The translations under genes and the position numbers were made by a program. DNA of 63,447 nucleotides, filler included, from Collodictyon triciliatum (Eukaryota): assembly GCA_043381765.1 (NCBI GenBank). It is 8 parts of 8 records of this genome, joined end to end, with 100 filler letters (N's around TTAATTAATTAA, not from the genome) between each part and the next. Parts side by side here need not be neighbours in the genome. Positions count along the whole stretch, not along the records: positions 1 to 8,220 come from JBHJMP010000582.1; 7 more parts are not named here. The stretch is one strand, 5' to 3'. Positions 1 through 32,324 of this stretch are shown here, piece after piece. A model generated the notes under the pieces. It did no database searches. It was not told the origin of the DNA and worked only from the letters and a program-made list of their open reading frames with translations. Position 1 is the first letter of the stretch; the number at the start of each line of letters is the position of its first letter.

Positions 1-2614
1 GCAGATTTTCGAGCGGCAGTCGATCTTGGCGCAGGTCCAGCTTGCACTCATCCTTTCGCTACCAACACAGATCGCTTTCTTTTTCGAGCCTTTTTCTTCT
101 CGGCCGCTCTTATGACCCGGCCTTTTTGTGCGACAATAAACCCTCCCTTTGACCTTGCTGTTTGTCCTCTCTTCATTACCAGAAAACCGAGCCTTTCGAC
201 GTGGCCCCGGCCTGCGACCTTTTCTTGGTGGCGTCTTCGAATGGTCTCATTTTTTATTCGACATTAGTGGCTTCTATCCCCCGTCCATGTTTGCTTCGAT
301 GTTGTTCCCTTCGTTCGTCGCGGCTTGATATTCTTCTTCACCTCCAACAAATCTATGCCATTTAGTTAGTTACCATGAAACGTCTGCATTATATGCATCG
401 CCTGACTTATCGCCCTTCTCTCTCTCTCTCCATCTTTCTATATATACATCCACTTTTATTCTGCTCAGGAGTAATTTCTGCGTACTCGGCTACGTCGGCT
501 TCTAACCAATCTGAAAACCGTCTCATGCATCGTTTCCAGGCCGTCCAGCCGTACATTTTGAGTATCCGCTACAATCCTTCAACAGACAGGTTTCTCTTTG
601 GTTTCGCATTCGTTGTTGGTCTGGTTACTTTTTTTTATTTTTGCGATTTGTTTGTTTCTGTAAAAATTCCTTGGACTCTTACTCAACACCCCAATCAACC
701 GCGAAGCATAATCACTCTCGAAAGGGAGGTTGAAGAGCACAGCCGACAAGCAATACGCATATACTCGAATTGGAGAGTTGGAACACCATCTCCAATACCC
801 ATCGCAGGTGTTTAATTGATAGGATATTGGAATAGAGATTTACCTCTGTTGAACCTTCTATTGACCATTATCCAGAAAATTGATTGAGCAAAGTTATTTG
901 CGGGATTCCCTATGAAAACAATCATCTTTGCATAAAAATACACGCACCAGCGGATCACATATTATTTCTGAATTTAACTGTTTTTTTCCCTTTATTCGAT
1001 TCAAAGTCTGAATTTAACTATAAACGAGCCCAGTTCAGGACTCTAGCGCTGTTCCTGAAGGTGTTCCCCAATCGGCCATGCATATTATAGGCTTCACTCC
1101 TGTTCTCGGAGAAACATCCAAGGTAAAAAAAAAAATACTATATTGGTAGGTCACAAAAACCTTATTGCAATCTTTGAAAATATTAGGAAAATATCTCTGC
1201 TTGCATCTTCAAATTGCGTCCATCTTTATACATCTAGACTAAAATCCAAATCAATAGCCTCTGCAGCCAACTCCTCGCGCATACACCCTCCCCCTATCAA
1301 TGTCGGCCACAGCCGTGGCTGTTTGCCAAAGCACAAGCCTCATGGCCATCGCCTGTCACAAGATTGTCACGGTTTGGATGCTCTATCAACACACAATTAC
1401 TCTCAAGAAAACAGCTGTGCAAAAAGAGGATAACACAAGTGCCACACTTCCCTCGAATCTTGCTGGCTCATCACTTCATGCTCGAATGTCTCAACGTGGG
1501 CAACTTTCGTACATGGGCAAATCATATCGCAGCCCCAATGAAAAGAAGGCTGACACCGAAGAAAAGGTTTCCATCACACTGGAATCCTATATTCGTTCTC
1601 TTATTTCCGATATTTTTTTTTAATATTTTCTATCTGCGAGTTACTTAAATGGCGCATTCGTTAAATTTATATTATTATCATAATAACGCTTGAATTATAT
1701 CAATAACGAGTATGTCGAGTCAATAATATTTTATGATTTAAATGACTACAGACGACTATTATAAAAGCACGTCCGGTGTTTGACGTGGAATCTTCATGGG
1801 AAGTCCGCGTTATCTCCTTGGAGGCAAACTACATAAGTGCTTAGAGACAATACTCTTATTTTCTAATGGCATATTTGTTGCTAACATGAAAAGATTTTAT
1901 ATTCCACAGAATTCGGTCTTCCTATTAATTTTTTTTTTAAAAAAAAATTCTACATGTAGCTTACGCTTGCTCTGACCAAGTCCGGGTCCTCAAATTCAGC
2001 ACATCAGAGAATAACATAATTTCGGAGGACGATAGTATGTTTATTTTCATTGTTGTATTGCTATGATAGTATCCTTCTTAACTCCTGAATATCAGCGGTT
2101 CAATATAATGCAAAAACATCAGTAATTTAACAAAAAAAATAATCAATTGTGACAGCCGTTATGAGAACAGAGATTAGTTTTCTCCCTGGTGAGGTAAGTA
2201 TCATAATATAATGGTGAATAACAATGTCATCAATCTATTTCGGCTTAATTTAACAATGGCATATTACAAAGAATGCCCTTTCAATTGATTATATGAAAAT
2301 AAAATATTATTTCCGTTTTTATATCCTTTTTGTTGGATATTAATTTTTTTCAGTATTAAAAACAAATAAAAACTTTCCTCTTTGCTATGTATTTCCACCT
2401 TGGTTTGTAATAATGATAATGATAATAATGATAATAATGATAATAATGATAATAATGATAATAATGATAATAATGATAATAATGATAATAATGATAATAA
2501 TGATAATAATGATANNNNNNNNNNNNNNNNNNNNNNNNNNNNNNNNNNNNNNNNNNNNNNNNNNNNNNNNNNNNNNNNNNNNNNNNNNNNNNNNNNNNNN
2601 NNNNNNNNNNNNNN

Positions 2615-8220: not shown

Positions 8221-8320
8221 NNNNNNNNNNNNNNNNNNNNNNNNNNNNNNNNNNNNNNNNNNNNTTAATTAATTAANNNNNNNNNNNNNNNNNNNNNNNN
8301 NNNNNNNNNNNNNNNNNNNN
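8221..8320. other. Artificial scaffold linker N44-TTAATTAATTAA-N44 (also 17816-17915, 24854-24953, 32825-32924, 42878-42977, 53514-53613, 61017-61116)
   Basis: The same 100-bp spacer with a six-frame stop cassette occurs seven times, and genes are truncated at these points. Confidence 0.97.
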
Positions 8321-8381: not shown

Positions 8382-9197
8382 GGTCGAGAGAATTGGGCAT
8401 CATTACAGATGTCTCCTCCTGGTTTGGGTACGCCACACCGTCGAATCTCTGTCTCATCGTTCCTGCTAGAACTTTTTACCAAAAAAAATGCCGACGGTAT
8501 TGTGCCAAAATATTTTCCTTTTTCCTTTTTCCTTTTTCCTTTTTCCTTTTTCCTTTTTCCTTTTATCGGTTAACTTTACTTTTACCTTTACCTTTTTTTT
8601 TCTTATTCTTTTTTCCTTTTCTTGTTTTTCTTTTTCCCTTTTCCTTTGTTTTTTCTGCACTCTTATTTCTATTTCTTCCTCTCCGCTCACAGCGTGTTCA
8701 CCGACGCACGGCTAACGCCCAGCCCTTCGGGTCAGCTCAGCCAGGCACCAGACTTCCCTTGCTCGCACGCATCACGGCACAAAGGACGCCAAAGGCAGAG
8801 TCCCGAGTGAAAGTCGAGCCATTTTGGTATGAATCACCATTTTCCCCGCTCTTTTTCCTCATTTTTTTTTTCTCTGGTTTATTTTCTTTTCAAAGGGATA
8901 TGCTTGTAACGAAGGAGGAAGAGAGAAAGTTCTCAGGAGGCAGGCAGATCCATGCGGCAGGAGCCTCTTGTACATTTCGTTCATTATAGGGGGCAGACTC
9001 ACGGAGCTGTCCCACGCTTCTAATGGAAGGAGGCGGAAAGTGTTACAGCCGGCAGAGGAAGGGAGACACTTCTTTGGGCGGATGTCGCACTCTCACATAC
9101 GGGGCGCAACGCTGCACAGAAGAGCGGGGAAAAGAAAAAAAGAAAAAAAGAAAAGAGGAGCAACACCTTTGCGAGAAGCGCTCGTCGGCTTGCCTCT

Positions 9198-11838
9198 TTA
9201 CTTGGGGCCAGCAGCCTTGATTTCGGCGGATGCTCCGCTCTCAAACTTCTTGAAGTTCTCTGTGAAAAGACCAGAGAGCTTCATGAGGGTCTTTGAGTAC
9301 TCAGCGTGATCGCCCCAGGTCTTCATGGGGATGAGCACGTTGGGGTCGACGTTGGGGCAGCTGGTGGGGACCTTTGCGGAGCAGAGGCATTTAGAACAAT
9401 ACTTCCAACCGAAGGCAGGTGACATGCGCAAGCTCTTTCATATAATTTGACTACTATTCAATTGCCAGAGCTCAAGAATAGTAGATGTCTGGTCTGTACC
9501 TGCAGATTGAAGACTGGGAAGGTCTCATACTTGGCCCTCTCGAGGCTTCCGTCGTGGATGGCGTCAAGGATGGCGCGGGTCACCTTCAGGCTCATGCGCT
9601 TTCCGACACCGTAGGCACCTCCGCTCCAGCCAGTGTTGACGAGCCAGACGTTGGCGTTGTGCTTGTTGATCTTCTCAGCGAGAAGCTCAGCATACTTGGC
9701 TGGGTGCCAAACCATGAAAGGAGCACCAAAGCATGCAGAGAAGGTGGCCTGGGGCTCCTTCACGCCGACTTCAGTACCGGCGACCTGGTTAGGTGAGGTA
9801 AGAGACCGGATTAGAAGTCTGACTGGCATAATGAGGGTTTCATGGCAATCATCAGCTGTTTTTTTTTTTTTTATTGCTGTTGTTGTTTTTGTTAAAAGAA
9901 ATGTTGCCTGCTATTCAGGGTTACAATTACCAAGTAATTGGTGGACTATTACTAGAATTAGTATCGGAATTATGAGAATAGCCCACGTACCTTGGCAGTG
10001 TATCCAGAGATGAAGTGGTACATGGCTTGAGCAGGGGTCAGCTTGGCGACCGGGGGAAGAACACCAAAGGCATCGCAGGTGAGCATGACAATGTTCTTGG
10101 GGTGGCCACCAACAGCGGGAATCTTGACGTTGGGAATGTGCTCAAGGGGGTATGAGACACGGGTATTTTCAGTGATGCTGATGTTGTTATAGTCGACCTG
10201 CACACACACACACACACACAAAAAAAAAGCATATTAATTCGTCAGCTGACCTTTGGCAAGGAGACAGGGCTGATTGTATCCGCTTGGTATAACATGCATG
10301 AGGTTTGGAGGAAGAAGGAAGACAGGAAGGACTAACATGAAAATAGAATTCTTACGACACCAGTGTGGCGGTCGTAGATGACGTTCTCCAAGAGTGCGCC
10401 GAAGCGAATAGCATCGTAGATTTCAGGTTCCTTCTCACGGGTGAGACCGATGGCCTTAGCGTAGCAGCCTCCTTCAATGTTATAGACTCCTTCATCACTC
10501 CAGGCGTGCTCGTCATCACCAATCAGCTGGCGCTCGGGGTCAGCAGAGAGGGTGGTCTTACCAGTTCCGCTATGGCAAAAGTGGGTCGTCAGGGAATGGG
10601 TCAGCAAGTACAGGATTCTTTTGTGAGGGGGCTCAACGTTGATTCGCTGAGGGCGCGTTGAGGCATGACATAATACGACAAGGAAATAAAATGGCGATTG
10701 GAAGAAATTGAAAAGAATAAAAAAAATGGCGAATGGAAGAAGAAAAAAAGAAATGGGGACGAAAAGGGGGACCAACCTGAGCCCAAAGAAGAGAGTGACA
10801 TCTCCCTTCTTTCCTTCGTTGGCCGAAGCGTGCATGGAGAGGATACCCTTCTTGGGGAGCAGATAATTCATGATGGTGAAGACACCCTTCTTCATCTCAC
10901 CAGCGTATTGAGTTCCAAGGATAACAAACTCTCTGGTGGCAAAGTTGAGGGAGACAGAGGTGGCTGAGGTCATTCCCTCGCTGAAGCGGTTGGCGGGGAA
11001 GGCGCCAGCATTGTAGATGGTGTAGTCGGGATCACCAAAGTTCTCAAGCTCCTCAGGGGTCGGGCGGATGAGCATGTTGTGCATGAAGAGGGCGTGATAT
11101 GCACGAGACGTAATGACGCGGATCTATGACGAGTGCAGAATTCAATGTACTCTTCATGGAAGAGAGGAGCCCGCGTGGGCATTTCGACTGACTCAATAAG
11201 TAAATACAAAAGTGATGGAAGAAAAGCTGTCTGCAAGAGCGGGAAAATCTGAGGGCTGGGTTGCTCTAAGTTTTTTCAAAAGACACTGTTACCTTGTATC
11301 TGTTCTTGGGGTCCCAGTTAGCAAAACCGTCAAAGACGTAGAGTCTGCGGCGAGTGTTGAGGTAGTCAATGGCGCGCTCACGATTGATGCGGAAGACTTG
11401 CGGGCTGAGCTTGACATTGACGCTGCCCCACCAAATGTCGTTGGCCGAGGACGGCTCGTCTACAATACGCTTGTCGAGAGGCGAGCGGCCGGTCTTTGCA
11501 CCGGAGAAGGCAGCCAAGGCGCCGGTGGAGAGAATGGCCGAGCCGCTTTCGTAGTTGAGGGCCTCTTCGTACAGCTTACCAACACTGGCGTTGCGGAAGA
11601 CAACCTCGGTGTTGATGCCGATGTTGGACAGGATCTTCGTGTCGGCATCGTGCTCCTGGTGGACGGAAGGCGTCTGGGAAGGCGCGTCTGTGCCGGGCTT
11701 CGAGCCTTGCAGCGACTTCTTGACAGATTCGAGGACCTTGTCAGGCGAGTTGGAGTTGGACGAAGACTGGACAAAGCGGGCCAGAGCTGCGGTCGTAGGC
11801 GACGGCAGGATTCCGCGCAAGCGGCTCACAAGCGACAT
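9198..11838 (-). CDS. pckA: Phosphoenolpyruvate carboxykinase (ATP), 6 exons: 11838-11293, 11123-10777, 10569-10356, 10197-9991, 9784-9500, 9371-9198
   Basis: Motifs [46 protein letters not shown] (across a splice), [30 protein letters not shown] and WLVNTGW. All introns are GT-AG and preserve frame. Stop TAA at 9198-9200. Confidence 0.97.
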
Positions 11839-12267
11839 AGTGTGTGCTTGATCTAGTGTGTTGGGTTTGACAGGTGGGGAAATGATGAGCACGGGCCACT
11901 GTTTGGAGAGAAGGTTGGGAGAAGGGGGGGGGGGGCTCTTGACAGATGTGGTGTCGACGTCGTGGTGTAGATGGGAGAGGCTGGTAGTGTGGTCAGTGGG
12001 TTCGAGTCGTGTGTGGGGTGGATTACTAGGCTTGGTCACCCCAACAGGGGGTTTCTTTGACCTCCCTTGGAGGATCATGCGGAAGAGAAGGGGCTAGGGT
12101 GAAGATTGACAGCGAACGTGGGAAAGAAAAGGGTGGGGAGAGAGAGAAAAACATAAAGACATCGTAGAGTAATGAGCGGGGGCGGGAGGCGGGGATAGGC
12201 ATTGGTTGGTGTGTTCAACAACTTCCCTTCTCTCGCAGGTAGGAGCAATATTAAATCTAATACGTGT

Positions 12268-12389
12268 GTTTGTTTGTTTGTTTGTTTGTTTGTTTGTTTG
12301 TTTGTTTGTTTGTTTGTTTGTTTGTTTGTTTGTTTGTTTGTTTGTTTGTTTGTTTGTTTGTTTGTTTTGCTTGTTTGCTTGTTTGTTTG
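12268..12389. repeat. (GTTT)n microsatellite
   Basis: Directly visible. Confidence 0.95.
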
Positions 12390-13200
12390 CAACACACAAG
12401 AGCTTCACAAGCCTGCGCGACGATTCGCGCTCGCGGGTTTCTGTCTGGTTGGGATCGTCTCGGGCCTTGTGGCGAAGCGTTGTCTGTGGGCGTGCGCGCG
12501 CGTGTGTGTGTAAGGCTGGCCTGAGCGGCTTTCCTTGGGTGCCCTTGGAGTGGCCTTTGACCGGGCGGCCATTGGATAAAAACCCCTCTCGCTTGGCCCG
12601 GAAGGGCTTATATAGGGCGTGTCCTTTGTGCGCTGCTATCCGCGTGGTCGCCTGGGCGGTTTGAGACGACTCTTGGATCAGCCGCCTGCTGCCGCTTTGG
12701 CCATGGAACATTCGCGCTATATGCCGTGACCACAATGACGAAGTGATGATTCGTGACGTCATGATATTGATGGTGCAGGGTGACGCACGTTCAATTTTCC
12801 TTTTATGGATATGCTTGTTGAATATTCTCCCAAATGTGCCCCTTTGGAATTGTCTCGGGGCCATAAACTAAAGTGAAGTGCAATCTCTGTCCTTTGTATT
12901 ATTTTATTATAATATATATTGCATATTTTGTCTTATATTCTTAAATAATTTGGTAATGGTGGGCCTTATCGATAAAATATAAGTATTCCACATATAGATA
13001 AATTTATTGAAATTTCCTCCTGTGGAATCGACAGCTTCTGAGGGCATTGTGCGGATTTACAGGGCGGGCTGCGCGGAGAGAGGAGCATCCGGGTGCTTGG
13101 CGCCATTGCTGGGGCAGAGACAGGGGATGATATGAAAGAATCCGCAAACCATCTCCGTCAGTATAAATTTTCCAACCAGGAAAAGGTAAAATTACTTTCT

Positions 13201-13222
13201 TTTTCCTTTATTCGATTCAAAG
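13201..13222 (-). mobile_element. Micro-element core copy about 90 nt downstream of the Roco stop; no clear flanking duplication
   Basis: TTTTCCTTTATTCGATTCAAAG, an exact match to the 18-nt core. Confidence 0.55.
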
Positions 13223-13309
13223 TGAACAGCATAAGACAAAATAAAATCTCTTTTTTTTTTTCTTTTTTTCTTCTTTCCTTCTCTTTTAAAAAAAATATAT
13301 ATTTGGCGC

Positions 13310-15635
13310 TCAATCCACTTGGCAGGGGCGAAACTCTCGTGCATGCTCTTCGCACATCCACCTCACAGAGCCAGTCTTCATGCGTACAGGCACAAGACCC
13401 GCCCATGTGTCTGCATGGTCATGTTTCTTCAAAAAGTTCTTCAACTGTCTGTTCTGAACTTCAGAGGCGTGTTGGATGTCTTCGCGCGAACCAATCTGAA
13501 ACATTTTTTTATACTCGGAGACAGCATCGTTAGCTTCCTTGTGGATGTAAGACGTCAGGTTGCCAACAGCCATGCTTGCAATGCCGAAGGAACCAGGAAG
13601 AACTGATGAGATGGCGCCCGAGACAAAACCAACCGCGATGTGATCGAACGCCTTCTGCAAGGTACTGTCATATGTCTGGAAAAACTTTGTGGGCTCCTTG
13701 ATTTCATAGCCTTTGTCTCCAGCGATAAAGTGCGCGCCAGAAGGTGAATCGCACAATAGTTGAAGGCGATACGTTGTAACGAACCAGTTTTGCCTAAGAG
13801 GATAGACAATGAATACGCTTGGACACGGTGGCTCGGTTGTAGTTCTTTGGCGTATACCCGACACGTTGCTTCTCATCGTGGAAAAGAAAGTACCCTTTTT
13901 CAAGTCATCCGTCACAATCATGTGGTGATTACAGCAAAGGACTTCGGTGTCTTTAGTTTCTAGGATCGTTTGCTTCCAGAGGTGCGTGCTTGTGTGCTCC
14001 AGGGCGAGGCACATAGGACATGGGACCCAATCTTCAGGAGGTAGAGTATTCATTTGCTTTGCTATGATGGCTTCTAACAGCTTGAGTGCAAAAACGATGT
14101 TCTGATTTGGTCGAAAACAGCGTATGGTGACATCAGCATACTTTTCGTAGTAGTTAAAAACCAAACGAGCGTGATAATCAAGGCCAGATGATAGACTCTT
14201 TGTTTCTGTGGCGATGTTGAAATAAAAACAGCACTGCGAGTCTGTGTAAAACCCACGATTCTCTCGACCTTTATCTGCCTTTTTATAGCAAAACTCTTGG
14301 ACCTTTGACACAATCAGGCTGTACACTTGCTTGTTTATCTGGTTAGGGGAGCAGTATCGCTTGGTAAATTCGGCTGTGCAGATGGGACTTGGGAATTCAG
14401 ACCAAACTTCCTCGGGCAATTGTCCCTTTTTCAGCATAACTGGGAATGTGGCCCATACATTGTTATGGGAAAAGGATATCTGATACGCCACACAGCATTC
14501 CCATAGGTAGCATGCAAGTTCTTTGGGACTATCCAATGAGAGCTCCTTTCTGAGAATCCCTTCAAAGTCCTCTCGGTTCAAGACCGGGCAGCAGGTCATC
14601 TCCTTTCTCACAGAAAATATGGCCAATATCGCCCGGACGATAAAGTTTGGGTTCAGAGCAACGGTAAGTCGTAGCTTTGGGTATGATGAGTGCCATATAA
14701 TAAAACCTTGGTCTCTAAAAAGAGAGAGAGCTCTCTCGATATTGTATTCATCCATGAGATAGTTTTGTTCTCCAATCAGCAATAATGACCCCAAAGAATA
14801 TATTTGTTGCTGCAAAATCTCTCTCGCCTTTGTAATTTCCTCCAAGAGTCTTGCATAATAGCCTGGTATAGTGAGCTTTACATCCGGAGAGTCTCTTATA
14901 CATTCGTATATAGCCTTTTTTAGTTCAGGAATGCATTCTCCTGTGGTGTTGCTTACAGATATATCTTTTCGGTAAATGAGGAAGTAACCATTGTATTCTT
15001 CATAAAGCTGGTCCAGGTATGAACGAAACGTGGAAAGCAAAACGGGGGCGTGAGGAGAATCCGCATGAGTCCCTACAATAATAACACGACTGTTGCGAAT
15101 GAAGGTATTGATCAGTTGCAACCAATCTCGAAGTCTGCTAGCTGCGGGGCCTGATTCGATATTGTAGACCAATACTATGATGGAATTAGAGGAGGAAAAA
15201 AAAGGATATGTTACTTGAAGCTCATCAGCGCCATTAAGGTCCCATATATTTGCAACAATCTCGTGGTCACCAAACTCTTTGAAGTTTATGAGAGTTTGAG
15301 CCAGAGACGATTTTTCAAATGCAGGAGTTCCAAAAAACAGCCGAGACATGAATCCTCTGTGGGAGTGTTTAAGTGAGTTCCACAATAGGGTTTTGCCACA
15401 CTTTGATTCCCCCATGAATATAACGCGGGATTGGCCCCACCCAACTTCTCCCTCCAGCGAGCTCCGGAGACTTCTTTTAAGCTCTTGGATATTGCTTGGG
15501 TACCTATTTTCAACACAAACGAGATTTCCAGACATGTTGATGCTCTCTAGGGAGTCCAAATATCCAATCGAGTAAGGTAGTTCCAAAATCTATGAGAATC
15601 CTCAATCAGCAAATCTTGAAAAAGAAAAAAAAAGG

Positions 15636-15703
<68 letters not shown>

Positions 15704-17650
15704 NNNNNNNNNNNNNNNNNNNNNNNNNNNNNNNNNNNNNNNNNNNNNNNNNNNNNNNNNNNNNNNNNNNNNNNNNNNNNNNNNNNNNNNNNNNNNNNNN
15801 NNNGAAAAAGGTACAGAAAAAGGTACAGAAAAAGGTACAGAAAAAGGTACAGAAAAAGGTACAGAAAAAGGTACAGAAAAAGGTACAGAAAAAGGTACAG
15901 AAAAAGGTACAGAAAAAGATACAGATAAAAGACAAGAAGAATTTTGAATTGGTAATGAGAGGGATAAAATAAAATACCTATACTATGTTATCATACCCCG
16001 CTGATATTATTATTATTAAAAATTAAATTAACTAACGTAATTATGCTCAAAGTCAAATCGCCTCAGAGAAATCAACATCTTGATTTCTGATGGTATAATG
16101 CTGATCTATGGGCCATACATGAGAAGAGTTGATTATCAAATGTTTTATTGTAATAGTTCATCTACAAATGTTCCACAAATACTCTTACTTTGTTATAGCC
16201 CATGTAGAGCTCTTGTAGATTCACAAGTCTACTAATTTGTGTTGGAAAGATCGATATCTAAATAAAAAGAAAAGAAAAAGGGACGATAAATATTAATCCA
16301 TTATTTGAATCGGGTTTAAGAGATTTTTGAATGAATGAATCCCCTATTTAACTTTACAATAATATCAACATATTTATGATATTGAAGAGGGATTTAGTGC
16401 ATCACTTACTTTATTATGAGATAAATCGAGAATCCTTAACGACACCAGACAAGATACAGATTTTGGAATCGCAGATATCTAGATTTTATTCATTAATTCC
16501 TACCATAAATATGTAAATTATTTTTTTTATTTTCCTTAACTTGATTATGGGCCATCTCTAGTGATATAAGTGTTTTTAACTGTAGTAACTGCGATGGAAT
16601 AATTGAAATCTTGAAGATATATAATGTTAGTAATGAATAAAAATTCAATTGTGATTAATCGATATATATACTTGATATTAAGAATATATCGATATTCTTA
16701 ATCAAATAAATATATGAAATTGTCTTCAAAACTTTTATTTCAGTTTGAATGAGCTGATTCTTTCCTTTATTCGATTCAGATTTTGGGGGAATAATTTAGA
16801 ACAAAATATGTTGATAATAAAAACAAGCAAGCTAAATTTTGCCATTAATAATTAGGCACCATTACAGACCTGACACACCCCAACATTCAACCTTTCAAGA
16901 GTAGAGAGAAGAAGAATAACCTCGGGGACTTCCTTGAGCTATTTACAACACATAGTCTCAAAGTTTGAAAATACTACTGGAACTATGAGAATTGGACAGA
17001 ATACAACGGTGGAAATCTTACTGGGTTCATCCATACATCCAGAACTTTGAGGGATGCTATCAATGACAATTCTACAGGGAGATTGGACAGCTGCATAGTA
17101 GAGGGCATATGGGTATCATAGGGTCTGTATAAAGTGATATACACCACTACATCCACAGAATAACAATTGAATGAAAAAAATATGGGTATGTAATTTGGCA
17201 CTGTTGACCTTATTGCTTCGAATACTGAGGGAGACCATATTTGACAGCATGGAAACGCTTGAAGGGAGTTCGTTGATCTATCAAGCAGTTAAAGTGAGTT
17301 ATGATTTAGGATATGGTGAATCAAGGAATCTATCAACATGCAATTATATTGGTTTTTTTAAAAGATAAAGATAAAGATGAAAATGAAGCAAATACATAAA
17401 TAAGATGACCATTTACATGGTTGTAACTCAAATTAAGTTCATTCAGCTTCCTGAGTAGAAACATATCTGTCGGAATCTGATCGATATCCTTATTTCTCAA
17501 ATCAATACTCCTAGCCTCTTGAACCATCTGGTCATCGCTAAATATTTCTGTGGATCCAACTGGGGACGGTTTCCACCAAAGGGTGTTGCGAATACATTCG
17601 GGCGGGCTTGGTTCATCAGGTGAGGGTTCTCGTGCATCTTGAGAATTCAT
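13310..17650 (-). CDS. Roco protein (LRR-Roc GTPase-COR plus C-terminal Cys/His region, no kinase), about 998 aa, 9 exons
   Basis: Exon 1 17650-17417, seven 69-nt LRR exons, last exon 15589-13310. Roc motifs GESKCGKT (P-loop), IWDLNG, IVLVYN, WL..I, IVGTHAD and VSNTTGECIPEL; COR-like AL.LFRDQGFII and LNPNF. Confidence 0.9.
15804..15925. repeat. 12-bp minisatellite (GAAAAAGGTACA)n in a Roco intron
   Basis: Directly visible tandem units. Confidence 0.9.
16761..16778 (-). mobile_element. Shortened micro-element copy in a Roco intron
   Basis: TTTCCTTTATTCGATTCA: lacks the terminal AAG and has no convincing flanking duplication. Confidence 0.45.
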
Positions 17651-17815: not shown

Positions 17816-18136
17816 NNNNNNNNNNNNNNNNNNNNNNNNNNNNNNNNNNNNNNNNNNNNTTAATTAATTAANNNNNNNNNNNNNNNNNNNNNNNNNNNNN
17901 NNNNNNNNNNNNNNNAACACAATAAAAAACACAATAAAAAACACAATAAAAAACACAATAAAAAACACAATAAAAAACACAATAAAAAACACAATAAAAA
18001 ACACAATAAAAAACGCGAAGAAAAAACACGAAGAAAACTCACACTAAACATCCAGAAGTTTGATAAAATACGCGAACAATAAAATACATATCCACGAACA
18101 ACAGAGGCCAAACAAATCTCTGGTGGACCAAAAAAA

Positions 18137-24690
<6,554 letters not shown>

Positions 24691-24853: not shown

Positions 24854-25942
24854 NNNNNNNNNNNNNNNNNNNNNNNNNNNNNNNNNNNNNNNNNNNNTTA
24901 ATTAATTAANNNNNNNNNNNNNNNNNNNNNNNNNNNNNNNNNNNNNNNNNNNNACAAACAAACAAACAAACAAACAAACAAACAAACAAACAAACAAACA
25001 AACAAACAAACAAACAAACAAACAAACAAACAAACAAACAAACAAACAAACAAACAAAAACAAAATAACACAACATGAAATAACATAAAATTAAATAAAT
25101 AAGTAAACCAAAATAAATAAATAAATCATCCTGTTAGTGAAAAGCAATCACGTATACACTAACGGCACAGGAGTGCGAGAATGAGAAATCGAGCGACATC
25201 ATTTATCAGTCAGTTTTAAATAAACACTGAACGCCAACCTGATCGATCCTCTGCTCATACACAGCCAAGCGTCCCTGGGCAACATGCACTCTTCCTTTGG
25301 CCTCCTGCTCCATCACCCCGAGTGCTGTCCGGTGCTTTGGTGCTTTCTGGCGGAGTAGTCATGGTTTGCGCTCAGCAAGCAAAGAAGAGTAAAGACGAAC
25401 GACAAGAAGAAGAAAAAAGGTGCTGGAAGAAAAAGTCAAGAACAGCGGACACCGTTCATGTTGTTTTGGGAACCTCTTCGAAGCTGTTTTTGAAGGGTTT
25501 CTTTATCGCGCGGATGTTCGGAGATCAAAAAAAAAAAATATTGATGACAGCAAAACCGTCGGAGTCCACAACAAAAAGTGGGATTTATCGAAGCAGCCGT
25601 GGGAAGGAAATGAAGAAAATGAAAAAAGAATAGGAAAAAAAAAAAGAGTCAGGAGTGTACGTTCAGTTGTCCATGTATTGCGACTGAGACAAAGAAAATA
25701 TGCGTCAACTCAATCAATGCTTAAGGGAGTCACAACGATTGCTCGAGGAGCGTGTAAAAGCGGTTGGGGTGTTAATAATGGGTGCGAATCCTTGCTTGAC
25801 CCATGTAGAGAGACGGAAGGTCGGTTCTTTGCGTCTGTGGCGAGTGAAGGCGGATGCGCATTGATGCAAAGTGTGCATTGCTTCATTTTGTTATTCATTA
25901 TGGCTCTTTCCTTTCTCTTTTTAAGCTCTGCGGTTGGACGGC

Positions 25943-29388: not shown

Positions 29389-30609
29389 GAAAGAAATGGA
29401 ACACATGGACGTGCCGATCACACTCGATTAACAAGTCATGTAAATTGGAAGAAAAGGGAGTTGTCTACTAACATCTACTGCGAATCCTTGCTCGGGTATA
29501 TGACCTGAAATAACGGCACCGGTGTTTTGTATTTTGACTTTATTCCGGCTCCTAGCGATTTCCCTCTAGGTTTGATTCACAGTCAGGCTTTAGTATCAGC
29601 TGTTTGTTTTAATTATCTGTCAATGGTGGGTGTGAGCTTCAGCCTTACAAAATAGACTCAATCAACTCTGAAGCGTAGAAGGAAACCACTCCTGTTTATA
29701 TGAATGAAGTGGCTTTACTTGTGATGCCTACAGTGCCCTGTGGCCTTGTTCCTGTACACCCGGCTCTACAAATGGCACTGACTCACTTGGGTGCGTTCTG
29801 TTTGCTAGTCTTATTCTTTAACTCTTTTATTCTGCGTGTGTCCTCCTTTCCTTTGGAATGAGTTGGCAAGCGTGTTGATACAAACAAGACTGGACACGTC
29901 GTCACAATTAGGAAAATGAGAAATCAAACGATGCATAGACTTGGCCACGGTTTAAACCAACCCACAAGAAAAAGAAACATTTTAATTCAAAAAAAAAAAA
30001 CTCAAAACCAAAAGACTCTGCAGAAGAGGAGAAGAAAAACAGGGAAAAGTAAAAGAGGCAAAGTCTATACAGAAGAATCGAAGAGAATGCCAATCACCAA
30101 AAACCTCGTGGCGCTGGTGTTCCTTTCAACAAGCGAAGCGAGAACCTCCGGTGGCGATGTTGCATTCATGTGAGTTGCTGTCATTGGCTTTGGTTCTTGC
30201 TAGTGTGCAGATAACAAACTCATAATAGTTACAGAAATTGAATGTCACATACAAATGTCTCATTAAGGATATTGTGCAGAGGATTAACCAAATTATATAT
30301 GGAATTTATATATATATTAATATATTTTATATATTATTGTTATTTTATTATATTTATATTAGATTGTATATACATTATACCAAAATTATTAATTTTATTG
30401 ACATCCAGTTTTCTCTCTACGATATATCATGTCTTGCACCCTTTCCTCATCTCTGGAATGAATGCGACAATATCATGTACAATATTAGATTATTTCTCTG
30501 AATTTTCAAAAAATACATAAAATCGGATGTCAAAATCACAGAACTAGGATGAGAGCAAGAAAAAAAAGCAGAAAAATTATGAAAAAGGAAAAAAAACAAA
30601 CAAGTCACA

Positions 30610-30712
30610 AAACACAGAGCAGCATTTTTTTTTTCCTTTATTCGATTCAAAGCAAACACAGAACAGCATTTTTTTTTTCCTTTATTCGATTCAAAGCAAA
30701 CACAGAACAGCA
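30610..30712 (-). mobile_element. Two tandem micro-element copies separated and flanked by three copies of a 15-bp sequence
   Basis: AAACACAGA(G/A)CAGCA at 30610-24, 30654-68 and 30698-712; T10-CCTTTATTCGATTCAAAG at 30625-52 and 30669-96 (44-bp period). Confidence 0.75.
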
Positions 30713-30819
30713 TAAAACAAGACCGAAGGGCGATGCACGCAACCAAGACAGCGGAAAGGCCCGGCCTGGGGTTACCCACCCGCACCAAACATTACTTATT
30801 TTTCTCGGCCTTTTGGCAG

Positions 30820-31251
30820 ATGATGAACTCCCAGAGATCAAGCTCGTCGCGCTCGTCGGGGTATTCCAACCCTCCCAACTCTTCACTCGATGCCCCAACC
30901 ATGGAGTTGGCCCGACGCGAGGTGAACAAGTTGCAGAGCGCTGACTTGATGGAGCTCCGAGCACTCAGGGTTCCTCCCCCACCCGTGGCCCAGGTTATGG
31001 AGGCCGTGTGTATCCTGCTCGGAGCCGAGCCAACATGGGTCAGTTCTAAGGCGCTGTTAGGCGAGCCAAACTTCAAGAGTAGCCTCCTGGCGTATGATGT
31101 TGCTAGGGTCTCTCCGAGTATGATTGCTAAGCTGCAAAAGTTCATCGACGACCCGAATCTTACGGCCAAAGCAGTTGGCTCGTGGTCATTGACGGGGCGA
31201 ACACTGGCTGTGTGGGTGCGTGCTGTTTTTAGCGAAGCCCAGGACCTCTGA
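30820..31251 (+). CDS. Small protein consisting essentially of a dynein heavy-chain microtubule-binding domain (143 aa; alternative in-frame start at 30733)
   Basis: ARREVNKLQSADLMELRALRVPPPPVAQVMEAVCILLGAEPTWVSSKALLGEPNFKSSLLAYDVARVSPSMIAKLQKFIDDPNL...LAVWVRAV matches the dynein stalk-tip pattern. Stop TGA at 31249-51. Confidence 0.85.
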   Translation: MMNSQRSSSSRSSGYSNPPNSSLDAPTMELARREVNKLQSADLMELRALRVPPPPVAQVMEAVCILLGAEPTWVSSKALLGEPNFKSSLLAYDVARVSPSMIAKLQKFIDDPNLTAKAVGSWSLTGRTLAVWVRAVFSEAQDL

Positions 31252-32324
31252 GTTGGGTAGCTTTATCTTCGACACATCTGGGCCAACAAGATATTCCTAA
31301 TCACCCCCTATGCACCGTGCTGTAGCGCTGATAAAATATAAAAAAAAAATGACCAAGATTAGATGTCGGTGGGGGACTATTGTCTATTTTTCTTTTGCCC
31401 TAACAAAACTGTTGGTATTTCGGCTATTGTACCAAAAAAAAAAAAACTTATCTATTTCCTCAGGGGATGTAGGTAGAATTTCTTTGCCTGTCACGGCGCG
31501 TTTGAGGCGGTGATGCTTGGAGGGAGCGCCTCCAGCCGAGAAAATTGGAGTTAAGGCTCTCCCAAGAAAAATAATAAATAATATGGTTTGGTTCCCTAAT
31601 ATAAACCCAGAGGATTACCAGGCTGGCGTTCCCGTGCAGCTCCTCGTCCTAAAAGTGCATAGCATTCTCGGGCTGACCCGCCATATTGTGCAAGATGATT
31701 CGTGGTTCTCTCAACATTAATACTATGGCAAAATGCTTTTCTTCTCATGTCATCTCGAGTGCCATTTGGAAATACTTCCACAAATCCCTGTAGTGCGACG
31801 ATTGGCCAATACACCACGACAAAATACTGATTATTGATGCAGCCTGGGCTGGCACCGAACCACTGCATTTAGAGCACAGCACGCCTTGTGGGACGAAAGC
31901 AGAGAAAGTCATGCGACCATTACCGGAATTTAGTGAGAATTTTACGCAGCATCCACTATGTGCTTACTATTCAGTACATATTGATATAATTACATAATAT
32001 TATATTTTTATCTTATTAAATTAGTATATGTAGCTATTTGATTTGAGCATGATGACTAACTGTAGCAATTTGTATTATTTCCAGAAAAGAATTTGTTCAG
32101 GTGGAGCCTTTAAAGCAGGATGTTGCCACTAACTCCGATCTGCCACATCACGCAGCCGTTGCATCGGCGCCTGTGTATCGATATTCGCAACAAAGAGACT
32201 AACAAGAGAACATAGAACGTTTTCGCTGCCTCCTTTGCCCCATTTTTCCTTTTCTCCTCCTTTGTCTCATCTCTTCTTTTTTTTTCTTTTCCTTCCTCCC
32301 AGTAATATAAACATCTACACAGGA

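What the first reader, a model, noticed from the sequence alone, without database searches (positions are those of the whole stretch)
967..1019. Ultra-short poly(A)-tailed retroposon-like element with a shared 5' end and target-site-like duplications
Seen: the 18-mer CCTTTATTCGATTCAAAG preceded by a T-run recurs at 980-1006, 13201-13222, 21412-21435 (decayed), 30625-30652 and 30669-30696, with a shortened copy at 16761. These lie on four different scaffolds. On the other strand it reads CTTTGAATCG-AATAAA-GG-An, i.e. a poly(A) signal plus tail. At this locus it sits between perfect 13-bp direct repeats. Established: a poly(A) tail with 10-20 bp TSDs is the signature of target-primed reverse transcription by LINE machinery. 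Inference: five copies share the same 5' boundary, which random 5' truncation would not predict. This suggests a discrete ~20-nt template, such as a minimal SINE, a processed small RNA, or a strong RT stop or cleavage site in a LINE 3' end. It is much shorter than typical SINEs. An alternative reading is a spliced-leader-like or acceptor-like sequence on the T-rich strand (polypyrimidine...AAAG).
Basis: partly seen in the sequence, partly recalled or inferred. Interest (0 to 1): 0.8.

Follow-up and report, generated by a model that had tools for sequence, protein, structure and literature searches.

The report
Tail-only stubs of a LINE retrotransposon
The repeated 18-letter motif with a short poly(A) tail is the very last piece of a jumping gene (a LINE retrotransposon) whose copying usually broke off almost at once, leaving tiny dead stubs in a freshwater microbe's genome, which is an ordinary process with an unusually sharp break point.

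Summary
CCTTTATTCGATTCAAAG behind a T-run occurs 7 times at up to 3 mismatches, against 0.17 expected. The copy at 980-1006 lies between perfect 13-bp repeats. The copy at 30625-30696 is a 44-bp tandem of insert plus 16-bp target repeat.

The motif is not a free-standing element. On metagenome contig L008 the same 18-mer plus A10 lies 75 nt downstream of the end of a retrotransposon ORF2. That ORF carries a zf-RVT motif, and its distant full-length relatives have endonuclease, RT and zf-RVT domains. Two runs that also hold window DNA gave 295 and 286 contigs on this LINE. Depth falls about tenfold towards the 5' side, break points are scattered, and flanks beyond the T-run are unrelated.

The window copies are therefore tail-only, 5'-truncated LINE insertions made by target-primed reverse transcription. 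The shared boundary 18 nt from the tail recurs in at least four independent window loci and two run contigs. It looks like a real truncation hot spot, and its cause is unknown. The spliced-leader, adaptor, SINE and 3'-UTR-signal readings are not supported. Interest is low to moderate.

The parts
967..979 (.). Left target-site duplication TCTGAATTTAACT (13 bp)
   Evidence: Exact repeat of 1007-1019 and directly abutting the insert. It is one of only 4 such repeats left in the window.
980..1006 (-). Focal insert of 27 nt. On the minus strand it reads the LINE 3' terminus (18-mer plus one extra G), then A7, then C.
   Evidence: It aligns to L008 at 100-130.
1007..1019 (.). Right target-site duplication (13 bp)
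13196..13222 (-). Tail-only copy: exact 18-mer with a decayed tail (TTTCTTTTT on the + strand). It lies in sense orientation about 87 nt downstream of the stop of the Roc-COR gene (13310-15589, minus strand).
   Evidence: There is no exact TSD; at most a decayed one, judged by eye.
16761..16781 (-). Shorter or decayed copy. The first 15 nt of the 18-mer are exact (16764-16778) behind TTT.
   Evidence: The flank beyond the tail resembles the flank of L008.
21412..21435 (-). Decayed tail-only copy (2 mismatches in 18) behind T6. It lies antisense within or next to a + strand C2-domain gene.
30609..30712 (-). Tandem: a 16-bp target copy with 2 mismatches, then [T10 + 18-mer + 16-bp target copy] twice. 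This is one insertion with a 16-bp TSD whose 44-bp unit was later duplicated. It lies antisense upstream of a + strand dynein-stalk exon.
48223..48332 (-). An 86-nt insert (48235-48320) between exact 12-bp repeats CACATGATTAAG. On the minus strand it ends in a 14-nt match to the LINE tail, then AGAGAG, A9 and C. Its 5' 52 nt resemble neither L008 nor anything else in the window.
   Evidence: The insert begins 39 nt after the stop of a + strand Methyltrn_RNA_3 gene.

Best explanation
The 18-mer, read on the minus strand as CTTTGAATCGAATAAAGG followed by an A-run, is the extreme 3' end of an L1-like non-LTR retrotransposon with an APE-type endonuclease. This LINE is abundant and recently active in this freshwater eukaryote or a very close relative.

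Each window copy is a dead-on-arrival insertion made by target-primed reverse transcription. The element's endonuclease nicked the target, and the freed 3' end primed on the poly(A) tail. The reverse transcriptase copied only the last 13-19 nt of the RNA. The short cDNA was then joined to the other side of a staggered break, which produced the 12-16 bp target-site duplications.

Shown:
- the sequence matches a LINE 3' terminus;
- TSDs are present at three loci;
- LINE copies in sequencing runs show a 5' truncation gradient, scattered break points and unrelated flanks.

Inferred:
- the TPRT steps themselves;
- that the repeated break exactly 18 nt from the tail reflects a position-specific stop, template switch or RNA end in the LINE 3' UTR, for example the edge of the RNA segment held by the RT complex.
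For: 1. L008, the only one of 35 exact metagenome hits that has the T-run, carries T10 plus the 18-mer at 102-129. On its other strand two ORF pieces align consecutively to P0121 residues 79-121 and 127-250 at 53-54% identity. They end at a stop codon 75 nt before the 18-mer.

2. The upstream ORF piece hits zf-RVT at E 3.9e-5. P0121 has PF13966 on record. Three distant full-length relatives (P0129, P0133, P0140) carry Exo_endo_phos + RVT_1 + zf-RVT. P0143 has the first two of these domains. P0141 has RVT_1 + zf-RVT.

3. In one search, X1 gave 295 contigs, X2 286, X3 7 and X4 0 on L008. In X1, 109 of the 295 are at least 99% alike to L008.
- Summed depth is about 3000 over 101-275 and falls to 114-360 over 626-729.
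- Contigs X1 rec 1 and rec 2 and X2 rec 9 run from the T-run through the 18-mer into the UTR and ORF (102-236, 105-218, 102-226).
- Loose ends start at the outer edge of the T-run (places 101, 102, 105) in 10 X1 and 9 X2 contigs, with poorly agreeing flanks (0.55-0.64 where 2 or more contigs are pooled).
- The shown 5' break points lie at 127, 146, 154, 269/270, 309, 368 and 509.

4. TSDs: 13 bp at 967/1007, 16 bp at 30653/30697 and 12 bp at 48223/48321.

5. Relative to neighbouring genes, one copy is in sense orientation (13205) and four are antisense (21418, 30635, 30679, 48251). The motif is therefore an inserted sequence and not a gene signal.

6. X1 and X2 also hold 47% and 29% of the sampled words of window 9000-15600.
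Against: - No copy in the 63-kb window extends from the 18-mer into L008-like LINE sequence, and none of the 114 window ORFs scanned has an RT or endonuclease domain. The link to a LINE rests on L008 and on contigs from runs, not on the window's own assembly.
- L008's own zf-RVT score (24.7 bits) is below Pfam's cutoff of 27.5. L008 shows no RT domain because the contig is too short.
- The contigs that cross from tail to UTR have only 25-28 letters on the tail side, below the tool's 31-letter rule for bridging.
- X1 and X2 are of uncertain kind (RNA or DNA). Their summed depth is not a copy number, and they could hold more than one organism.
- Random 5' truncation does not predict four independent copies ending at the same base, so the simple model is incomplete.
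- Exact TSDs are missing at 13205, 16764 and 21418.
- The 3' junctions at 989 and 48251 carry an unexplained extra G before the T-run.
Confidence: 0.85

Rival explanations
1. A discrete mini-template. An 18-nt poly(A) RNA, made by cleavage of LINE transcripts or otherwise, is retroposed in trans and behaves as a fixed-length minimal SINE-like family.
For: The same 5' boundary is seen at 989 and 30635/79 (TSD-defined) and at 13205 and 21418. An X1 contig joins place 129 to place 230 with GGG in between. An X3 contig matches only 96-127 and then continues with unrelated G-rich sequence. X1 depth is roughly flat over 101-275, so few long copies break close to the tail. The window has six short copies and no long one.
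Against: Eighteen nt cannot hold a promoter, so the copies cannot found a lineage. No tRNA-like head is present. Rfam finds no ribozyme or other RNA family in L008. The 3' UTR fold is no better than shuffles (z = -0.51). The copies at 16764 and 48251 share only 15 and 14 nt, so the boundary is not absolute. Short-read assembly may simply drop long repeat copies.
Confidence: 0.12
2. A signal on the T-rich strand: a spliced leader, a trans-splice acceptor, or the 3' end of tiny (introner-like) introns.
For: The + strand reads as a polypyrimidine run ending in AG. At 980-1006 (27 nt), 13185-13222 (38 nt) and 21406-21435 (30 nt) the stretch from a GT to the motif's final AG has intron-like ends. 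Four of the five copies beside an identified gene are antisense to it.
Against: At 30625 the T-run is preceded by GCA, not GT. The motif runs on into a LINE UTR and ORF in L008 and in run contigs. Nothing in the window reaches an Rfam gathering score. The one intron I could size, in the PEPCK gene, is about 140 nt. The 40 bp of insert plus TSD at 989 fits an insertion, not a conserved splice signal. No RNA was laid on the window, so splicing was not tested.
Confidence: 0.03
3. An artefact: a library adaptor or assembly chimera.
For: The window is a concatenate of small unplaced scaffolds. All 7 copies are on one strand. From recall only, a 14-nt stretch inside the 48235-48320 insert resembles a commercial small-RNA adaptor.
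Against: The same 18-mer and tail occur in an independent metagenome contig and in contigs of three runs from two studies, each time next to different flanks. Exact TSDs surround three inserts. One copy has decayed by 2 of 18 positions.
Confidence: 0.01

Closest known systems
5'-truncated LINE-1-type insertions made by target-primed reverse transcription
   Same: Poly(A) tail, TSDs of 12-16 bp, a relative family whose ORF2 has APE endonuclease, RT and a C-terminal CCHC (zf-RVT), a depth gradient rising towards the 3' end, and occasional extra nucleotides at 5' junctions. Passages of PMC2912911 read state that most human L1 copies are severely 5'-truncated, that TSDs of 10-17 bp are typical, and that 14.6% of 5'-truncated L1 insertions carry extra nucleotides.
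   Different: Here the window copies are only 13-19 nt long and four independent ones stop at the same base. The two TSD-defined nick sites (…AACT^ATAAAC and …AGCA^TAAAAC on the primed strand) are not the TTTT/AA of human L1. The LINE clade was not determined, because no RT domain of this family was available.
Stringent-type LINEs and their partner SINEs, which share only a short 3' tail recognised by the RT (recalled examples: eel UnaL2/UnaSINE, CR1 and L2 tails)
   Same: A short conserved 3' terminal sequence is shared by otherwise unrelated inserts: the 86-nt insert at 48235-48320 shares only 14 nt with the LINE tail.
   Different: No structured 3' stem-loop was detected. The tail is a plain A-run and not a short tandem repeat. 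Recognition of the 18-mer by the RT has not been tested.
Chimeric or template-switched retrocopies (recalled example: L1-U6 chimeras) and R2-type template jumping
   Same: An X1 contig joins the 18-mer to LINE place 230 through three extra letters. The 48235-48320 insert could be LINE tail plus another RNA.
   Different: There are only two such cases here, and the second RNA is unidentified.

Membership tests
Non-LTR retrotransposon (LINE) copy, 5'-truncated | 3' end is an A-rich tail directly followed by target DNA | tested here: met
   The tails are A7, A10, A10, A9 (behind AGAGAG), A6 and a decayed A-rich run. In runs, flanks diverge at the outer edge of the T-run in 19 contigs.
Non-LTR retrotransposon (LINE) copy, 5'-truncated | Target-site duplications of variable length flank the insert | tested here: met
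   TSDs of 13, 16 and 12 bp at three loci. Two of the only 4 qualifying repeats in the window flank copies. Three older copies have none.
Non-LTR retrotransposon (LINE) copy, 5'-truncated | Sequence is colinear with the 3' end of an element that encodes RT (and endonuclease) | tested here: inconclusive
   L008 has the ORF2 C-terminus (zf-RVT at E 3.9e-5, below the Pfam cutoff; 54% identity to P0121, which has zf-RVT), then a 75-nt UTR, the 18-mer and A10. RT and EN domains are seen only in distant relatives at about 30% identity. The RT of this family itself was not recovered.
Non-LTR retrotransposon (LINE) copy, 5'-truncated | Copies share the 3' end and differ in their 5' end | tested here: met
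   Depth is about 3000 near the tail and falls to 114-360 at 515-618 nt from the tail. Break points lie at 127, 146, 154, 269/270, 309, 368 and 509.
SINE | Internal Pol III promoter or a tRNA/7SL/5S-derived head | tested here: not met
   The TSD-bounded inserts hold 18-19 nt plus the tail. ARAGORN finds 0 tRNA-like genes in the window, and nothing reaches an Rfam gathering score.
SINE | 3' tail shared with a partner LINE | tested here: met
   The 18-mer equals the L008 LINE terminus.
Spliced leader / SL RNA gene | Leader followed by a GT donor and an Sm-binding intron part; leader found at mRNA 5' ends | tested here: not met
   Each of the 7 copies continues with different letters after the motif, and none begins with GT. 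There are no Rfam matches. Presence at mRNA 5' ends was not tested.
Spliceosomal intron / introner | GT...AG ends and removal from RNA | tested here: inconclusive
   GT...AG ends can be drawn at 3 loci but not at 30625.

The most novel reading that the evidence does not exclude
The break exactly 18 nt upstream of the poly(A) is a built-in property of this LINE's reverse-transcription complex or of its RNA, such as a fixed abortive product, a template-switch point or an RNA end. In that case tail-only stubs form a distinct class that outnumbers longer copies in assembled DNA, at roughly one per 10 kb in this window. This class would be a natural record of where first-strand synthesis fails. Its antisense T-run plus AG could also seed splice acceptors, and its sense AATAAA could seed poly(A) sites, in nearby genes.
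Probability: 0.35. Interest if true: 0.5.

Novelty: new member of a known kind. Interest (0 to 1): 0.3.

Why it matters
The main value is in annotation. A motif that looks like a mysterious 27-nt mobile element, a spliced leader or an adaptor can be masked as LINE debris. It also flags a young, abundant and poorly sampled LINE family: only 24 proteins at E up to 0.001 among 1.84 billion representatives. If the 18-nt hot spot holds up genome-wide, it would give an unusually sharp natural marker of abortive target-primed reverse transcription. It would also be a source of ready-made poly(A) signals and polypyrimidine-AG tracts scattered through genes.

Tried and rejected
- Whole genome of the window: none is held.
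- Literature search for the motif, its reverse complement, sub-words and a U-letter form: 0 papers.
- Rfam on the window at gathering thresholds, and on L008 at E up to 1: nothing.
- Fold of the L008 3' UTR plus tail: z = -0.51, so there is no sign of a stalling hairpin.
- Metagenome scan: 34 of 35 exact hits lack the T-run and look like chance matches, mostly in unrelated contigs.
- Viral scan: the 1 hit is unrelated. Prokaryote-genome scan: the 2 hits are unrelated sequence without a T-run, in two flavobacterial MAGs.
- The search for related loci with P0121 in viral contigs: no relative.
- PEPCK homologue search to place the organism: no close named relative. The protein atlas only repeated zf-RVT.
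- Pfam on 114 window ORFs: no RT or endonuclease.
- blastn and tblastx of L008 against the window: only the tail matches.
- X4 gave 0 contigs on L008. This is no proof of absence.
- A common 3'-UTR signal was considered and dropped, because orientation relative to neighbouring genes is mixed.
- A decayed TSD at 13205 and 21418 was judged by eye only and is not claimed.

Full report
**What the window is**

The 63,447-base window is a string of small scaffolds joined by N44-TTAATTAATTAA-N44 spacers, with 100-N gaps inside them. Most pieces end in microsatellites or homopolymer runs. It is eukaryotic. Pfam finds:
- an ATP-type PEPCK (9461-12093, minus strand);
- a Roc-COR GTPase (13310-15589, minus strand);
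- PP2C;
- two dynein stalk fragments;
- a C2 domain;
- peptidase M1;
- an RNA methyltransferase and a kinase.

No whole genome is held for it. Words from 9000-15600 occur in two small runs of uncertain kind, X1 (0.47 of the sampled words) and X2 (0.29). They also occur at about 0.2 in freshwater and lake metatranscriptomes.

**Checking the observation**

The 18-mer CCTTTATTCGATTCAAAG occurs 7 times at up to 3 mismatches, all on the + strand, against 0.17 expected. None of 100 shuffles reached 7. Shorter sub-patterns recover the same seven sites. Every copy is preceded by a T-rich run.

At the focal locus the 27-nt insert at 980-1006 lies between exact 13-bp repeats at 967-979 and 1007-1019.

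At 30609-30712 the order is as follows:
- a 16-bp target copy with 2 mismatches;
- T10 plus the 18-mer;
- the 16-bp target copy;
- T10 plus the 18-mer;
- the 16-bp target copy.

This fits one insertion with a 16-bp duplication whose 44-bp unit was later doubled.

As a control I scanned the whole window for exact direct repeats of 12 bp or more at offsets of 27-112. Repeats as long as their own offset (arrays) were set aside, and a low-complexity filter left 89 rows. All but 4 of those rows are overlapping rows of four microsatellite tracts. Two of the 4 are the repeats around the 989 and 48251 copies. The flanking duplications are therefore real. The copies at 13205, 16764 and 21418 have no exact duplication.

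**What the motif is**

A scan of metagenome contigs gave 35 exact hits. Thirty-four lack the T-run and look like chance matches, mostly in unrelated contigs. The exception is L008, which has T10 plus the 18-mer at 102-129.

On the other strand of L008, two ORF pieces lie upstream of the motif. They align one after the other to protein P0121, at residues 79-121 and 127-250, with 53-54% identity. The first piece contains a C-x2-C-x8-H-x4-C motif and hits Pfam zf-RVT at E 3.9e-5. That score of 24.7 bits is below the cutoff of 27.5, and the piece is cut by the contig end. The second piece ends at a stop codon 75 nt before the 18-mer.

P0121 carries PF13966 on record. An exhaustive profile-free search with P0121 found only 24 proteins at E up to 0.001 among 1.84 billion representatives. 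I scanned 7 of these with Pfam:
- P0129, P0133 and P0140 have Exo_endo_phos + RVT_1 + zf-RVT;
- P0143 has Exo_endo_phos + RVT_1;
- P0141 has RVT_1 + zf-RVT;
- P0135 has RVT_2 + zf-RVT;
- P0132 has none of these.

The 18-mer plus A-run is therefore the 3' terminus of a non-LTR retrotransposon whose ORF2 layout is L1-like.

**The LINE in sequencing runs**

X1 gave 295 contigs, X2 286, X3 7 and X4 none. In X1, 109 of the 295 are at least 99% alike to L008. L008 therefore comes from the same or a very close organism, and the family is young.

Summed depth is about 3000 over places 101-275. It declines through about 1400-2000 at 300-450 to 114-360 at 626-729. This is the 3'-heavy profile expected of 5'-truncated LINE copies.

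Listed contigs run from the T-run through the 18-mer into the UTR and ORF: X1 rec 1 (102-236), X1 rec 2 (105-218) and X2 rec 9 (102-226). Only 25-28 of their letters lie on the tail side, which is under the tool's 31-letter bridging rule.

Loose ends begin at the outer edge of the T-run (places 101, 102, 105) in 10 X1 and 9 X2 contigs. Their flanks agree poorly (0.55-0.64 where 2 or more contigs are pooled), which means many different insertion sites. On the 5' side, the break points shown lie at 127, 146, 154, 269/270, 309, 368 and 509. A further 123 loose ends and 568 pieces were not shown.

An extra G behind place 593 is present in all the covering depth of X1 and X3 and in 154.5 of 253.5 in X2. 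It removes L008's frameshift.

Caveats apply. X1 and X2 may be RNA or DNA. Depth is summed word depth, not copy number.

**How the copies arose**

The anatomy fits target-primed reverse transcription, which is established for L1-type elements (background passages of PMC2912911):
- a nick in the target;
- priming on the poly(A) tail;
- first-strand synthesis;
- joining at a staggered second break, which leaves a TSD.

In the window, synthesis stopped after 13-19 nt.

The two best-defined target sites read …AACT^ATAAAC and …AGCA^TAAAAC on the primed strand. This differs from the TTTT/AA preference quoted for human L1. At 989 and 48251 one extra G lies between the TSD and the T-run, and I cannot explain it.

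No RT or endonuclease ORF is found among the 114 window ORFs scanned. blastn and tblastx of L008 against the window match only the tail.

**The shared 5' boundary**

Four independent window loci stop at or within a few bases of the same position: 989 and 30635/79, both TSD-defined, and 13205 and 21418. In the runs, one X1 contig joins place 129 to place 230 with GGG in between. One X3 contig matches only 96-127 and then continues with G-rich unrelated sequence.

X1 depth is roughly flat over the first 165 nt or so, so few long copies break near the tail. A smooth truncation model therefore does not predict a cluster at 18 nt.

I found no cause. The 3' UTR does not fold better than shuffles (z = -0.51), and Rfam sees no ribozyme. 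The copies at 16764 (15 nt) and 48251 (14 nt, then unrelated sequence) show that the boundary is a preference, not a rule.

Assembly bias is a serious alternative for the absence of long copies in the window, because high-copy repeats are hard to assemble from short reads. It does not explain the coincident end points.

My best guess is a position-specific stop or template switch of the RT complex, or an RNA end at that base. I hold it at about one in three as a distinct built-in property.

**Rival readings**

Minimal SINE or independent small RNA. This is unlikely as a lineage, since 18 nt cannot carry a promoter and no tRNA-like head exists. A cleaved LINE RNA fragment used as a template remains possible.

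Spliced leader. This is rejected, because the motif is colinear with a LINE UTR and ORF, no donor follows it, and Rfam finds nothing.

Intron or acceptor. GT...AG frames of 27, 38 and 30 nt can be drawn at 989, 13205 and 21418 but not at 30625. Whether any stub is spliced was not tested.

3'-UTR signal. This is rejected as the origin. The copy at 13205 is in sense orientation about 87 nt after the Roc-COR stop, but the copies at 21418, 30635/79 and 48251 are antisense to their neighbouring genes.

Adaptor or artefact. This is rejected on three grounds: the independent occurrences with different flanks, the TSDs, and a copy that has decayed by 2 of 18 positions.

**Novelty and verdict**

The process is the well-known 5' truncation of LINEs. 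The LINE family itself is poorly sampled, and no paper in the searched library contains the motif.

I file the finding as a new member of a known kind, with an unexplained truncation hot spot that deserves a genome-wide census. Interest is 0.3.

Noticed in passing
window 8221-8320, 17816-17915, 24854-24953, 32825-32924, 42878-42977, 53514-53613, 61017-61116: Scaffolds are joined by N44-TTAATTAATTAA-N44 spacers. The window is therefore a concatenate of unplaced scaffolds, and neighbourhood across a spacer means nothing. Most pieces end in microsatellites or homopolymers.
   Followed up: partly
window, all 7 motif copies: All 7 copies, on 5 scaffolds, have the T-run strand on the + strand. With arbitrary scaffold orientation this is about a 1 in 16 event. 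I found no cause.
   Followed up: no
L008 82-111 versus window 16738-16763: The DNA just beyond the poly(A) tail is similar at L008 and at the 16764 copy (TTTCTGTTTGTAATGA versus TTTCAGTTTG-AATGA). The stretches TGATTC or ATGATT lie before the T-run at three sites. This may reflect a target-site preference or nesting in an older stub.
   Followed up: partly
window 980, 48235: At both clean 3' junctions a single G lies between the left TSD and the T-run. On the element strand the tail therefore ends …AAAC.
   Followed up: no
window 13185-13222 and 21406-21435: Two copies lie 9-12 nt after an AAG|GTAA motif, so GT...AG frames of 38 and 30 nt exist. The 30-nt frame keeps the open frame 21265-21528 intact. 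A LINE stub may have been taken up as a tiny intron or acceptor. This was not tested with RNA.
   Followed up: no
window 13205-13222 (minus strand): A sense-oriented stub with AATAAA lies about 87 nt after the stop codon of the Roc-COR gene and might serve as its poly(A) signal.
   Followed up: no
window 48300-48313: A 14-nt stretch inside the TSD-bounded 86-nt insert resembles, from recall only, part of a commercial small-RNA sequencing adaptor. Given the TSDs I take it as coincidence or as part of an unknown co-copied RNA.
   Followed up: no
window 55722-57928: A 2-kb island of 68% G+C in a window of about 35% G+C has long open frames on both strands and a PRK/uridine kinase domain (E 1.2e-19). 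It may be a contaminant or a foreign segment.
   Followed up: no
window 30583-31251 and 32133-32876: Two + strand ORFs hit the same part of the dynein microtubule-binding stalk profile (positions 89-205 and 90-216). They are either paralogous fragments or a local duplication.
   Followed up: no
L008 place 593: L008 lacks a G that is present in all the covering depth of X1 and X3 and in 154.5 of 253.5 in X2. The ORF2 frameshift in L008 is therefore private to that copy or is an assembly error.
   Followed up: partly
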